This document shows, in pieces, positions 30,543 through 33,241 of a stretch of DNA of 64,000 nucleotides. Each line of letters starts with the position of its first letter. The first letter of the stretch is position 1. Location of the stretch: sequence record PQ567651.1, one strand, 5' to 3'. The position numbers and the translations under genes are program-made. The notes below the pieces were generated by a model, which saw only the letters and a list, made by a program, of their open reading frames with translations, was not told the origin of the DNA and did not search any database. The DNA comes from Escherichia phage cardinal.

Positions 30543-32276
30543 TTAGTCAACCTGGATGGTTCCCATAGTACGAAGAACCTCTACATCAACACGGTTGCGG
30601 ATATCAGTAAATGTTTCATCACGTCCTTCTACTTGTGGTGTAATAACCGTACCATCTCTGAAGATAACTTGTAACTCATTGTCTTCATCTTGGATATCTT
30701 TAAAAGAAAGATTATCCACAAGAGAAAGTTTACCATTTGTATCCTTAACAACCTTAATAAAACCTTTTGCAGAGCGTTTACCAGGATCAGTTTTAGGCTC
30801 CTTACTTACCAAAATTTCGTGTTCACCGATGATACTACCTGTTGCTTTAACAGCAAAACCAAAAGTATCTCGTGTATTGAACTGATAAGTATAACTACCA
30901 ACACCAAATACAATATTGGAAGCTGCAAAACCTTTCTTCTTCAGTCGGCGTAAGATCTCGTGTTCTCGTTCAACAGTAATAGAATCACCATAAATCATAC
31001 CGATGTGCTGATCAAGAACCTTGTAGCCTTTTCGGTTGATAGTACCACCAAACACTTCCCAAAGGATTTGAATAGAACCTACTGCTTCACAATAAGGAAT
31101 CTCATAAGTTTCATCAATACAATCAGCAACACTGCAATCCTGAAGAACATTGTAATACTTATTAACATCAGCCAAATGAACTACTTCAGTGGCTGTAGCA
31201 ATACCATTATTTAAAAGGTCTTCATAGTTATCAAAAGATTCAACATTGTATCCTGCAACAACTTTAACCGGATCTCCTGAATCTGGACGAATAACAAGAC
31301 GACCATTTCGTGACATAATGGAATCTTTCAACTCTACCAGAATGCGAGTCAAGACAGCCCAGTAGTCATAAGAATCTGCTACATATGAACAAAAACCTTC
31401 TGGAACAATTTCTTCAATATAGCGGCGAAGAAACTCTTTCTCTGCTACATAACGAAGCCCATCAACATCATCTTTAAGATGTGGGAAATGTTTCTTCAGA
31501 TCTTCAACAATAGCTCCAATGTTAGTCGTTGCTACTGAATGTTCTGTTGCCGGAATAGAACCTGCAACAAACTGATCATAATCAATACCATAATAATCAT
31601 GCACAGTCTCAATAGCCAGAATGTTATCTGTTCCTGTGAAAGATGCCAAATGAGCGATACCACTCTTATAACCATCTTCGATATTACTTAAACCACGTAG
31701 GCTAAAATCATGACACTGGAAGTTAACGTGATCAATATTATCACACGTTGCCATCGCATATGCCATAGCGATACGCTTATACTGAAAAGCTGCTGTGGCA
31801 TTAGTCATTGTCTTCCAAGTTTCATCTGACAATAGTGTTTCCACATAGTTAGTTAACCAAAAGAATTTTTCTAAAGTATTATGCACAGTAAACACAGGAA
31901 CACCAATAGGACACAAAACACCTTCTGGCAGAGATCGAACTTCCAGCGGAAGATAACCTAAATCGTGCAATTCTCCCCAACATTCAGCAGAAGGAGCAGA
32001 AGCACCTAATGCATTTTTAGACATACGATAAAATTTATTTACTGCTGCACTACGAGACATTTTAAAGAAGCTATCCCACATAGTTACAAGAGCATCAGTA
32101 ACTGCTCGACGAATACCTAAAACAATTACACCACGTGCTTCACGATCTGCATAGTGTGCAAAGTTTTTATCATTACGAGGAGTTAAATTAGAGAAAATGA
32201 GTTTTGTATTTTGGTTGTACATCTGCTTGTGACCAGGTTTATACCAATCAGTAGCAAAAGGTGCAAAAATATTCAT
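30543..32276 (-). CDS. nadV: nicotinamide phosphoribosyltransferase-like enzyme (Nampt/NadV family; candidate Namat)
   Basis: 577 aa; N-terminus FATDWYKPGHKQMY...FSNLTPR matches the Nampt DxYKxxH...TPR signature. Confidence 0.8.
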   Translation of the reverse strand: MNIFAPFATDWYKPGHKQMYNQNTKLIFSNLTPRNDKNFAHYADREARGVIVLGIRRAVTDALVTMWDSFFKMSRSAAVNKFYRMSKNALGASAPSAECWGELHDLGYLPLEVRSLPEGVLCPIGVPVFTVHNTLEKFFWLTNYVETLLSDETWKTMTNATAAFQYKRIAMAYAMATCDNIDHVNFQCHDFSLRGLSNIEDGYKSGIAHLASFTGTDNILAIETVHDYYGIDYDQFVAGSIPATEHSVATTNIGAIVEDLKKHFPHLKDDVDGLRYVAEKEFLRRYIEEIVPEGFCSYVADSYDYWAVLTRILVELKDSIMSRNGRLVIRPDSGDPVKVVAGYNVESFDNYEDLLNNGIATATEVVHLADVNKYYNVLQDCSVADCIDETYEIPYCEAVGSIQILWEVFGGTINRKGYKVLDQHIGMIYGDSITVEREHEILRRLKKKGFAASNIVFGVGSYTYQFNTRDTFGFAVKATGSIIGEHEILVSKEPKTDPGKRSAKGFIKVVKDTNGKLSLVDNLSFKDIQDEDNELQVIFRDGTVITPQVEGRDETFTDIRNRVDVEVLRTMGTIQVD

Positions 32277-32347
32277 AGTTATGTCTCCTTGTTTGTTAGT
32301 GTGGGAGTATCTTACTAAGCATACTCCCTATTGTCAACACTTATTAT

Positions 32348-33241
32348 TTAAAAATTCCACACGTATGGAGATACAATTTGTTGTTGCAAATCTGACTGAT
32401 TCTTAACAAGAACACCGGAATCTTCTTGGATGTTATCTTCCCACACATTAAGAGAATGAATGCAGTCAAAGTGCTCACTTAACTCTTTAAGACCTTTAGA
32501 AAAGATACCGTGTGTAACATATAACTCAATCTTACCTGCGTTACGAGCACGTAGCACTTTAGCCAATTCAATAAAAGTTCTACCGCCGTCACAGATATCA
32601 TCTACGATCATCAGGTTACGCTTATTGAAATCCTGTACAGAAATGTCTGTACGAACAATAGCACCTGTTGCAGTATCTCTAACCTTCTCTGCACAGAACA
32701 CATCTAAAGACATTTTCTTAGATAATTTAAATATTTTCTTAAGAGCACCACCATCAGGACTAACAAGAGCAAAATTCTCCATACGTAACTTCCACTTTAA
32801 AGTTTCATAAGCAATCTCTTCTTGAGGTATTACACAGAGTCTGTCAAACACCGCTGGAGTAACATCACTATGTGGATCAGCAACGATAACACGTGAGAAA
32901 TTTAATGAATTAATTATAGAAGCAAATGCTTTAACTCCGAATGCTTCACCAGGCTCACACACTCTGTCTTGTCGTGCATACGGTACATACAACATGAGCA
33001 AATCAACACAATATGGTTTATGATATAGCATATTGTCCAATGCATTCTTAGTCATAACCAAAGTCATCAAGTCTTTAGCAGATCTTACTTCTAAAGAGAG
33101 TAAGATTCTGTCTGTAGCATGATTGAAACCTGATAGATTCGTGTCTAGTTGAACATGTTGTTCTCCACCAGAGAATGTAAAGACTTTAACGTCTACATCA
33201 GTAACATAACAGTCAACACCATGTAGAATACTAACTTTCAT
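32348..33241 (-). CDS. prs: ribose-phosphate pyrophosphokinase-like enzyme (Prs family; candidate ADPR-pyrophosphate synthetase Adps)
   Basis: 297 aa; YARQDR, VADPHSD and DDICDGGRT match Prs catalytic and PRPP-binding motifs; 71 nt upstream of the Nampt-like gene on the same strand. Confidence 0.8.
   Translation of the reverse strand: MKVSILHGVDCYVTDVDVKVFTFSGGEQHVQLDTNLSGFNHATDRILLSLEVRSAKDLMTLVMTKNALDNMLYHKPYCVDLLMLYVPYARQDRVCEPGEAFGVKAFASIINSLNFSRVIVADPHSDVTPAVFDRLCVIPQEEIAYETLKWKLRMENFALVSPDGGALKKIFKLSKKMSLDVFCAEKVRDTATGAIVRTDISVQDFNKRNLMIVDDICDGGRTFIELAKVLRARNAGKIELYVTHGIFSKGLKELSEHFDCIHSLNVWEDNIQEDSGVLVKNQSDLQQQIVSPYVWNF

What the first reader, a model, noticed from the sequence alone, without database searches (positions are those of the whole stretch)
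30543..33241. Adjacent Prs-like and Nampt-like genes: candidate two-enzyme NAD+ reconstitution module
A ribose-phosphate-pyrophosphokinase homologue (YARQDR, DPHSD, DDICDGGRT) sits directly upstream of a nicotinamide-phosphoribosyltransferase homologue on the same strand, with their own promoter and no NMN adenylyltransferase gene anywhere in the window. To my recollection, this exact pairing has been described as a phage NAD+ reconstitution pathway that rebuilds NAD+ from ADP-ribose and nicotinamide after NAD+-depleting host immunity. If these are canonical Prs and NadV instead, the pair would only make NMN, which does not complete NAD+ synthesis. This is the most system-like counter-defence candidate here.
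Basis: partly seen in the sequence, partly recalled or inferred. Interest (0 to 1): 0.85.

Follow-up and report, generated by a model that had tools for sequence, protein, structure and literature searches.

The report
Known phage NAD+ rebuilding gene pair

Summary
Two intact minus-strand ORFs sit exactly at 30543-33241: a 297-aa Prs-like gene, a 71-bp gap, then a 577-aa Nampt-like gene. The window is a phi92-like E. coli myovirus (Justusliebigvirus).

Both proteins belong to the Adps/Namat (NARP1) branches, not to canonical Prs/Nampt.
- The Prs-like protein nests among validated Adps (Bas63, SPbetaL1, DyoEdafos), apart from cellular Prs (495/500 bootstraps). It scores 250 vs 108 bits against Adps vs Prs profiles.
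- It keeps the catalytic Lys (K186).
- The Nampt-like protein groups with Adps-associated Namats (500/500; 648 vs 269 bits).
- Its best solved-structure match is SPbetaL1 Namat (9W5X, E 5.5e-118, against about 1e-48 for human Nampt).
- It carries the published Namat-specific adenine-clamp motif exactly (GSYTYQFNTRD) and all catalytic residues.
- I found no Nmnat, Macro or RyR domain in the window, and no Nmnat in the rest of a near-identical genome.

The supplementary tables of the NARP1 discovery paper already list the phi92, Bas60 and Bas61 orthologues. The pair is therefore already known by homology. I found no experiment on this lineage.

Minor points: an internal promoter-like site between the genes, a variant clamp-loop residue (N38), and an unlinked Macro-domain Adpp homologue elsewhere in the genome.

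The parts
32348..33241 (-). adps: ADP-ribose pyrophosphokinase-type gene (Prs-like, 297 aa), first gene of the pair
   Evidence: ORF. It is 35% identical to Bas63 Adps (E 7e-43) and to SPbetaL1 Adps (E 5e-23). It falls in the Adps clade, 495/500 bootstraps. It scores 249.6 bits against an Adps HMM and 107.7 against a Prs HMM. It fails all Prs equivalog cut-offs in NCBIfam.
30543..32276 (-). namat: nicotinamide ADP-ribose transferase-type gene (Nampt-like, 577 aa), second gene
   Evidence: ORF. Best PDB hit is SPbetaL1 Namat 9W5X/9W5W at E 5.5e-118, against human Nampt at about 1e-48. It is 39% identical to Bas63 Namat (E 1e-136). It falls in the Namat clade, 500/500 bootstraps. It scores 647.5 vs 268.8 bits against Namat vs Nampt HMMs.
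30867..30899 (-). Codons for the Namat selectivity-clamp helix motif GSYTYQFNTRD (aa 460-470)
   Evidence: It matches the published Namat-only consensus GS-X-Phi1-X-Phi2-X-Phi3-TRD with aromatics at positions 3 and 7 (PMC12774641). Y462 and F466 align with SPbetaL1 F392 and Y396. NARP2-type Nampts have GGGLLQ..RD at this site.
32121..32174 (-). Codons for the Namat selectivity-clamp loop (SCL, aa 35-52, NDKNFAHYADREARG...)
   Evidence: It follows the conserved TPR. The third residue is K37, one of the allowed R/K/Y residues, and aligns with SPbetaL1 R40. The fourth residue is N38, where Bas63 has W.
31086..31250 (-). About 55-aa insertion in Namat after RPDSGDPVKVVAG (aa 343-397)
   Evidence: The insertion is absent from SPbetaL1 and DyoEdafos Namat and from all Nampts. 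An insertion at the same site occurs in Bas63 (validated in vivo), Pakpunavirus, Agtrevirus and Listeria phage Namats.
32675..32689 (-). Codons for Adps EKVRD, containing catalytic K186
   Evidence: K186 aligns with SPbetaL1 Adps K162, whose K162A mutant was used as the inactive control by Osterman et al.. It also aligns with E. coli Prs K194.
32576..32602 (-). Codons for the Adps ribose-phosphate-binding loop DDICDGGRT (aa 214-222)
   Evidence: Identical to Bas63 Adps. Cellular Prs have DDM(I/V)DT(G/A)GT at this site.
32858..32878 (-). Codons for the Adps motif DPHSDVT (aa 122-128)
   Evidence: The clade signature is (D/E)PHS(D/N)V, against DLHAxQIQGFF in cellular Prs.
33281..33309 (-). Promoter-like site upstream of adps (TTGACT-17-TAGAGT), preceded by an AT-rich tract at about 33310-33400
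   Evidence: This is a consensus match only; function was not shown.
32309..32337 (-). Promoter-like site inside the adps-namat gap (TTGACA-17-TAAGAT, 10/12)
   Evidence: It is one of 3 TTGAC-N18-TAAGAT sites in the window, against 0.05 expected.
33249..33254 (-). Shine-Dalgarno AAGGAG of adps
   Evidence: Sequence read.
32285..32290 (-). Shine-Dalgarno AAGGAG of namat
   Evidence: Sequence read.

Best explanation
The two genes are a core (two-gene) NARP1 module. NAD+-depleting host defences (SIR2, TIR, DSR, SEFIR and similar effectors) split NAD+ into ADP-ribose and nicotinamide. The first enzyme, Adps, uses ATP to pyrophosphorylate the terminal ribose of ADP-ribose and makes ADPR-pyrophosphate. 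The second enzyme, Namat, couples ADPR-PP to nicotinamide, releases pyrophosphate and regenerates NAD+ directly. No NMN intermediate, Nmnat or host salvage enzyme is needed. This restores the NAD+ pool so the phage can complete its cycle.

Shown here: family and clade membership, conservation of the catalytic and adenine-clamp residues, gene order, and absence of Nmnat. Inferred from characterised homologues: the two reactions and the anti-defence phenotype.
For: Adps
- It sits in a clade with the validated Bas63, SPbetaL1 and DyoEdafos Adps, separated from nine cellular Prs in 495/500 bootstraps.
- It scores +142 bits for an Adps profile over a Prs profile, and the leave-one-out controls behave correctly.
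- It scores 50-100 bits against NCBIfam Prs equivalogs whose cut-offs are 296-536.
- K186 aligns with the catalytic K162.
- The DPHSDVT and DDICDGGRT motifs are shared with Bas63 Adps and differ from Prs.

Namat
- Its best solved structure is SPbetaL1 Namat, E 5.5e-118.
- It falls in the Namat clade, 500/500 bootstraps.
- It scores +379 bits for a Namat profile over a Nampt profile.
- The clamp-helix (SCH) motif GSYTYQFNTRD fits the published Namat-only consensus.
- All NAM and ribose-phosphate contact residues are conserved, including R330 (=R306), D217 (=D215) and F191 (=F189).

Context
- The Adps-then-Namat order on one strand is conserved in all eight comparison phages.
- No Nmnat, NUDIX, Macro or RyR family is in the window, and no Nmnat is in the rest of a near-identical genome.
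- 55 phage records carry both genes at 95% identity or more.
- Orthologues from phi92, Bas60 and Bas61 are listed as Adps-associated in Osterman et al. Tables S1/S2.
Against: - No enzymology or genetics exists for this lineage. Identity to the validated enzymes is moderate: 35% for Adps and 39-47% for Namat.
- The clamp loop has Asn at the position where Bas63 uses Trp for adenine stacking. Which residue stacks here is therefore unknown; F39 or K37 are candidates.
- SPbetaL1 Namat retains PRPP-dependent NMN synthesis in vitro, so some canonical activity cannot be excluded.
- The promoter-like site between the two genes means they may not be a strict single-transcript operon.
Confidence: 0.9

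Rival explanations
1. Canonical salvage. The first enzyme is a true PRPP synthetase and the second a true Nampt. Together they make NMN, which host NadR or PncC/NadD converts to NAD+.
For: Pfam and NCBIfam name them this way, as do most GenBank annotations. TIGR01251 is passed marginally, 118.8 bits against a cut-off of 113. Namat enzymes retain some PRPP-to-NMN activity in vitro (PMC12774641).
Against: Both proteins fall outside the Prs and Nampt clades with high support. The adenine-clamp motif, which is dispensable for NMN synthesis but required for NAD+ synthesis from ADPR-PP, is intact. For the Bas63 homologues, deleting host pncC and nadR did not abolish counter-defence.
Confidence: 0.05
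2. NARP2-like or three-enzyme pathway. A Nampt works with a phage Nmnat encoded elsewhere in the genome.
For: A gene annotated 'nucleotidyltransferase' (alia gp038) exists outside the window.
Against: That protein is a Pol-beta/poly(A)-polymerase-head-type fold (weak PF01743, PHROG 1614). It is not a cytidylyltransferase-family Nmnat. The Nampt-like protein is excluded from the NARP2 Nampt clade in 500/500 bootstraps. Osterman et al. found no phage with both pathways.
Confidence: 0.02
3. General metabolic booster unrelated to defence. The pair raises PRPP, NAD+ or nucleotide supply for a large phage that also carries RNR, ThyX and many tRNAs.
For: The genes sit between a tRNA cluster and a nucleotide-metabolism region. 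NARP1 homologues also occur in non-mobile bacterial DNA, which suggests housekeeping roles there.
Against: NARP1 substrates (free ADPR plus nicotinamide) accumulate mainly after NADase attack. In Bas63, ADPR-PP appeared only when the defence system was present.
Confidence: 0.03

Closest known systems
NARP1 of Escherichia phage Bas63 (JohannRWettstein, Felixounavirus), genes 79-80 (Osterman et al., bioRxiv 10.1101/2024.02.11.579819)
   Same: Same two-gene order and strand, and the same E. coli host. Adps is 35% identical, with an identical DDICDGGRT loop and the DPHS motif. Namat is 39% identical over its full length (47% on conserved columns). It has the same GSYTYQ.xTRD clamp helix, the same K at SCL position 3, and a large insertion at the same site after RPDSGDP.
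   Different: A different phage subfamily (Stephanstirmvirinae vs Ounavirinae). The gap is 71 bp and carries a strong promoter-like site, against 45 bp in Bas63. SCL position 4 is Asn instead of the Trp that stacks on adenine in Bas63. The window Namat has an extra insertion of about 25 aa at aa 256-281. No experimental data exist for this lineage.
NARP1 of Bacillus phage SPbetaL1 (purified Adps and Namat; Namat crystal structures 9W5X/9W5W, PMC12774641)
   Same: All NAM, ribose-phosphate and adenine-contact positions are conserved or conservatively replaced: F392 to Y462, Y396 to F466, R40 to K37, A362 to S432. The catalytic K162 aligns with K186.
   Different: SPbetaL1 Namat is 491 aa and lacks both insertions. 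Its Adps has DDLSSFGGT instead of DDICDGGRT. Its two genes overlap at their ends, whereas here they are 71 bp apart.
NARP1-AP (Adps-Adpp-Namat, e.g. Vibrio phages Gary and JSF12; bioRxiv 10.64898/2026.01.28.702374) and the RyDEP-containing NARP1 of phage DyoEdafos (10.64898/2026.05.28.727677)
   Same: The core Adps and Namat enzymes are homologous.
   Different: No Macro-domain phosphatase or RyR-domain glycosidase lies in or next to the pair, or anywhere in the window. A Macro-domain homologue does exist about 80 kb away in the genome of a near-identical relative. It is 38% identical to JSF12 Adpp, E 4e-35.
NARP2 (KVP40 Nampt + Nmnat) and cellular Prs / Nampt
   Same: Same folds and catalytic cores. 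Pfam assigns the same families.
   Different: Separate clades. Nampts lack the aromatic clamp helix and have GGGLLQ instead. No Nmnat is present. The window Adps fails all Prs equivalog thresholds.

Membership tests
NARP1 - Adps | Falls in the Adps clade, separated from prokaryotic Prs (the criterion of Osterman et al.) | tested here: met
   In an NJ tree with 9 cellular Prs and 13 Adps-type proteins, the split has 495/500 bootstrap support. The window protein scores 249.6 bits against an Adps HMM and 107.7 against a Prs HMM, and the controls behave correctly.
NARP1 - Adps | A Namat homologue in the immediate vicinity (true for 97% of the clade) | tested here: met
   namat starts 71 bp downstream on the same strand.
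NARP1 - Adps | Catalytic lysine (SPbetaL1 K162, whose K162A mutant served as the inactive control) | tested here: met
   K186 aligns with K162 and with E. coli Prs K194.
NARP1 - Adps | Pyrophosphorylates ADPR (not ribose-5-phosphate) to ADPR-PP | not testable with these tools
   This needs purified protein and LC-MS.
NARP1 - Namat | [quoted passage not shown] | tested here: met
   GSYTYQFNTRD at aa 460-470, with Y462 and F466 at the adenine-stacking positions.
NARP1 - Namat | Clamp loop (SCL) supplies a stacking residue: position 3 is R/K/Y, and when it is K or Y, position 4 stacks | tested here: inconclusive
   Position 3 is K37, which is allowed. Position 4 is N38, not aromatic; F39 follows. 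Deciding which residue stacks needs a ligand-bound model or structure.
NARP1 - Namat | Conserved Nampt-like catalytic core (F189, D215, R306, catalytic His, D13'/Y15') | tested here: met
   F191, D217, R330, the ATEHS His, D10 and Y12 are all conserved.
NARP1 - Namat | Falls in the Adps-associated clade, distinct from the Nmnat-associated Nampt clade | tested here: met
   500/500 bootstraps. 647.5 vs 268.8 bits against Namat vs Nampt HMMs.
NARP1 - Namat | Prefers ADPR-PP over PRPP and makes NAD+ directly | not testable with these tools
   This needs a biochemical competition assay.
NARP1 (system) | Confers resistance to NAD+-depleting defence systems | not testable with these tools
   I found no published test for phi92-like phages.
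NARP2 | KVP40-type Nampt plus a phage-encoded Nmnat | tested here: not met
   The protein is excluded from the Nampt clade. No CTP_transf_like or NUDIX family is in the window. No Nmnat is in the rest of the alia genome, and gp038 is a Pol-beta-type nucleotidyltransferase.
Canonical ribose-phosphate diphosphokinase (Prs) | Reaches the NCBIfam equivalog or subfamily cut-offs for Prs | tested here: not met
   Scores are 50-100 bits against cut-offs of 296-536. Only the broad TIGR01251 model is passed, 118.8 against 113. Pribosyltran_N is below the Pfam threshold.
NARP1-AP / RyDEP-extended NARP1 | A Macro-domain Adpp or a RyR-domain glycosidase within the operon | tested here: not met
   Neither domain is in the window. 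An unlinked Macro homologue exists elsewhere in the genome of a near-identical relative.

The most novel reading that the evidence does not exclude
phi92-like phages may run a 'split' NARP1-AP. The core Adps-Namat pair (in this window) would cooperate in trans with an unlinked Macro-domain protein: alia gp066, 38% identical to the operon-embedded Adpp of Vibrio phage JSF12. That would let the phage also use ADPR-1''-phosphate produced by RES-type (aRES) defence. This lineage is missed by operon-based catalogues. Related small variants are an internal promoter that could express Namat independently, and a clamp loop that lacks the usual position-4 stacking residue.
Probability: 0.2. Interest if true: 0.35.

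Novelty: already known. Interest (0 to 1): 0.15.

Why it matters
NARP1 is an important counter-defence strategy, in which the phage rebuilds the metabolite that the host destroys. It was published in 2024, structurally dissected in 2026, and built into AntiDefenseFinder. The phi92, Bas60 and Bas61 orthologues of these two genes are already in the discovery paper's tables.

The value of this check is confirmatory. Database annotations ('ribose-phosphate pyrophosphokinase', 'nicotinate/nicotinamide phosphoribosyltransferase') are misleading for this locus, and simple motif and profile tests separate Adps/Namat from Prs/Nampt cleanly. For phage-therapy work with Justusliebigvirus phages, it predicts tolerance to SIR2-, TIR- and DSR-type NAD+ depletion.

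Tried and rejected
1. My first bootstrap runs were flawed. Rooted-clade support returned 'None' for the key split. An uncapped Kimura distance then produced NaNs and a spurious 337/500. Capping saturated distances gave 495/500.

2. Overall similarity to PDB Nampt-family entries is not a clean discriminator on its own. Entry 9ke8/9keo scores E 4e-100 but has an intermediate clamp helix, GAQTYQRNTRD. I could not identify it from the literature. I therefore relied on the SCH motif and on the clades.

3. I suspected that alia gp038 'nucleotidyltransferase' might be a hidden Nmnat. I rejected this: it is Pol-beta/PolyA_pol-type.

4. I did not run structure prediction. Namat and Nampt share one fold (RMSD about 1 A according to PMC12774641), the tool returns no coordinates or ligands, and no Adps structure appeared among the solved structures that match the window protein. 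It could not discriminate.

6. The small flanking ORFs (30250-30471, 29804-30070, 33663-34031) match only PHROGs of unknown function. I found no evidence that they belong to the module.

7. Base composition across the pair (GC 0.355-0.374) matches the rest of the window. There is no sign of recent acquisition.
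Full report
**Observation**

The window is part of a phi92-like E. coli myovirus, genus Justusliebigvirus. The 3.1-kb region is 99.3% identical to phages inny and alia and 98.8% identical to phi92. Two intact minus-strand ORFs occupy exactly the reported interval. The Prs-like gene is 33241..32348 (297 aa). A 71-bp gap follows, then the Nampt-like gene at 32276..30543 (577 aa).

Pfam, NCBIfam and PHROGs confirm the superfamilies. 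Both genes have AAGGAG ribosome-binding sites. Base composition is unremarkable.

**What is known**

Osterman et al. (bioRxiv 10.1101/2024.02.11.579819) defined NARP1. Adps pyrophosphorylates ADP-ribose to ADPR-PP. Namat joins ADPR-PP to nicotinamide to give NAD+.

Genetic proof came from Bas63 (a Felixounavirus) and Fado. The biochemistry came from SPbetaL1. Later work added four things:
- Namat crystal structures and a defining 'selectivity clamp' (PMC12774641).
- A bacterial NARP1.
- A Macro-phosphatase extension, NARP1-AP.
- A RyR-domain glycosidase extension, with purified DyoEdafos enzymes.

The window phage is none of these experimental phages. The discovery paper's Tables S1/S2 nevertheless list the phi92, EmilieFrey (Bas61) and PaulScherrer (Bas60) orthologues. 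The Nampt-like proteins are labelled 'Adps-associated'. The Prs-like proteins are labelled 'Namat within 10 genes: Yes'.

**Test of the Prs-like protein**

- It is 35% identical to Bas63 Adps (E 7e-43) and to SPbetaL1 Adps (E 5e-23). Its best match to any solved Prs is only E 6e-15.
- Against NCBIfam it passes only the broad TIGR01251 model (118.8 bits against a cut-off of 113). It fails every Prs equivalog or subfamily model by hundreds of bits.
- I assembled nine cellular Prs spanning Proteobacteria, Firmicutes, Actinobacteria and Cyanobacteria. I added eight phage Adps-type proteins, including the three validated ones.
- The split between all Adps-type proteins (window included) and cellular Prs is recovered in 495/500 bootstraps.
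- In a competing-profile test with the window left out, it scores 249.6 bits on the Adps profile and 107.7 on the Prs profile. Leave-one-out controls classify Bas63, SPbetaL1 and DyoEdafos Adps and five Prs correctly.
- Alignment shows clade signatures shared with Bas63 Adps and different from Prs. These are DPHSDVT (Prs: DLHAxQIQGFF), DDICDGGRTF (Prs: DDMIDTGGT), and a shorter, acidic loop after YARQDR.
- The catalytic Lys is retained: K186 aligns with SPbetaL1 K162 and E. coli K194.

**Test of the Nampt-like protein**

- Its best solved-structure matches are 9W5X/9W5W (E 5.5e-118). The data-availability statement of PMC12774641 identifies these as SPbetaL1 Namat. Human and rodent Nampt, and Xanthomonas Nampt, score about 1e-48.
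- An unidentified entry (9ke8) scores 4e-100 but has an intermediate clamp helix. Overall similarity is therefore not sufficient, and the published motif is the proper test.
- That motif is GS-X-Phi1-X-Phi2-X-Phi3-TRD with aromatics at positions 3 and 7. The window has GSYTYQFNTRD at aa 460-470, with Y462 and F466 at the adenine-stacking positions. Five NARP2-type phage Nampts have G-G-(G/K/Y)-L-(L/V) at this site. Xanthomonas Nampt likewise lacks the aromatic pair, with GGALLQKVDRD.
- All nicotinamide and ribose-phosphate contacts are conserved, including R330 (=R306), D217 (=D215), F191 (=F189) and the catalytic His.
- The Namat/Nampt split has 500/500 support. The profile competition gives 647.5 vs 268.8 bits.
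- One defining feature is only partly met. In the clamp loop, position 3 is K37, which is allowed. Position 4, which stacks on adenine in Bas63 (Trp), is Asn here, followed by F39.
- The protein is about 85 aa longer than SPbetaL1 Namat. The main insertion (aa 343-397) occupies the same site as insertions in Bas63 and other large-myovirus Namats, so it is compatible with function.

**Context**

- The Adps-then-Namat order on one strand is conserved in every comparison phage.
- Pfam scans of 87 window ORFs found no Nmnat (CTP_transf_like), NUDIX, Macro or RyR domain.
- I read the annotation of the remaining 83 kb of the near-identical phage alia. It has no Nmnat. The one 'nucleotidyltransferase' is a Pol-beta-type protein.
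- This rules out NARP2 and argues against a three-enzyme canonical route.
- Both genes co-occur at 95% identity or more in 55 phage records.

**Expression**

A sigma-70-like site with an upstream AT-rich tract precedes adps, at 33309..33281. A stronger match, TTGACA-17-TAAGAT, lies in the intergenic gap at 32337..32309.

The pattern TTGAC-N18-TAAGAT occurs three times in the window against 0.05 expected. Two of those sites flank namat. The pair is therefore probably co-expressed, but namat may also have its own promoter. None of this has been shown experimentally.

**Mechanism and confidence**

The best explanation, at about 0.9 confidence, is a core two-gene NARP1. Host NADase products (ADPR plus nicotinamide) are converted to ADPR-PP by Adps using ATP, and then to NAD+ by Namat.

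Membership and residue conservation are shown here. The reactions and the anti-defence phenotype are inferred from homologues that are 35-47% identical. The rivals are each unlikely:
- Canonical Prs plus Nampt.
- NARP2.
- Defence-independent metabolic boosting.

**Novelty**

This is already known. The system is published, its detection is automated in AntiDefenseFinder, and this lineage's genes are in the original tables. I found no experimental paper on the phi92-like version.

The only mildly new lead lies outside the window. The genome of the near-identical relative alia encodes an unlinked Macro-domain protein, gp066. It is 38% identical (E 4e-35) to the Adpp that sits between Adps and Namat in Vibrio phage JSF12, which is listed in the NARP1-AP tables; phi92-like phages are not listed there. 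Macro proteins are very common in phages (2,908 records), so this is a hypothesis, not a finding.

Noticed in passing
Outside the window: phage alia NC_052655.1 55853-56569 (L024:32854-33570, minus strand): A near-identical relative's genome has an unlinked 238-aa Macro-domain 'phosphatase' (PF01661 E 2e-7; PHROG 335). It is 38% identical (E 4e-35) to the Macro Adpp embedded between Adps and Namat in Vibrio phage JSF12. This could be a split NARP1-AP. However, Macro proteins occur in 2,908 phage records.
   Followed up: partly
Outside the window: alia 101319-102131 (L025:36320-37132), about 4 kb beyond the window's right end: A phage-encoded Sir2-like (NAD-dependent deacetylase family) gene sits in the same genome as NARP1. 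The literature also lists the anti-TIR gene Atd1 in Justusliebigvirus. This lineage seems to carry several NAD+-related genes.
   Followed up: no
window 26928-29796 (minus strand): A cluster of 16 tRNA genes, including three tRNA-Met(CAT), lies just downstream of the Adps-Namat pair on the same strand.
   Followed up: no
window 35256-38038 (plus strand): An RNA-repair-like gene set sits 2-5 kb from the pair on the other strand. It comprises a phosphoesterase (36148-36699), a T4 Rnl1-type RNA ligase (36701-37633) and an AAA_33/polynucleotide-kinase-like ORF (37634-38038). One ORF somewhere in 33663-48254 also has a cREC_REC 'cyclic-phosphate processing' domain. This may be a tRNA-repair counter-defence against anticodon nucleases.
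   Followed up: partly
window 30522-30550 (-), 32309-32337 (-), 53470-53498 (+): The promoter-like motif TTGAC-N18-TAAGAT occurs 3 times against 0.05 expected by chance. It may be a phage-specific promoter class. The site at 30522-30550 overlaps the namat stop codon and precedes a 73-aa ORF.
   Followed up: partly
window 30250-30471 (minus strand): A 73-aa ORF lies directly downstream of namat. It has two CxxC pairs (zinc-ribbon-like) and matches only PHROG 37033 of unknown function. No link to NARP1 was found.
   Followed up: partly
window about 33242-33662: A 420-bp divergent intergenic region marks the switch from minus-strand to plus-strand genes. The GC skew flips sign here. It contains a very AT-rich tract at about 33310-33400.
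   Followed up: no
window 48255-63282 (plus strand; individual ORFs not assigned): Unusual cargo for a phage appears here: RmlD/epimerase/dehydratase-type sugar-nucleotide enzymes, a serine-recombinase (Resolvase) domain, a proteasome/HslV-like peptidase and PhoH. They sit alongside class I RNR and glutaredoxin.
   Followed up: no
PDB entries 9ke8/9keo: A solved 'nicotinamide phosphoribosyltransferase' of 495 aa scores close to Namat (E 4e-100). Its clamp helix is intermediate (GAQTYQRNTRD), with no aromatic at position 3 or 7. I could not establish its source or substrate preference.
   Followed up: partly
Proteins P0061, P0062, P0087, P0096, P0103: Adps-type proteins about 45% identical to the window's are encoded on bacterial chromosomes, in Geminocystis spp. 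(3.9-4.2 Mb contigs) and Thorsellia anophelis. They cluster inside the Adps clade. This fits reports of bacterial NARP1.
   Followed up: partly
GenBank records such as MG065656.1 'Campylobacter phage C3': Four records labelled as Campylobacter phages carry this locus at 60-80% nucleotide identity, yet the C3 Adps protein is 98.7% identical. The labelling or host assignment of these phi92-like records looks doubtful.
   Followed up: no
alia 81674-81889 (L025:16675-16890): A 71-aa ORF is annotated 'phosphoribosylpyrophosphate synthetase' through a VOG transfer. It is far too short to be one, so this is probably an annotation artefact.
   Followed up: no
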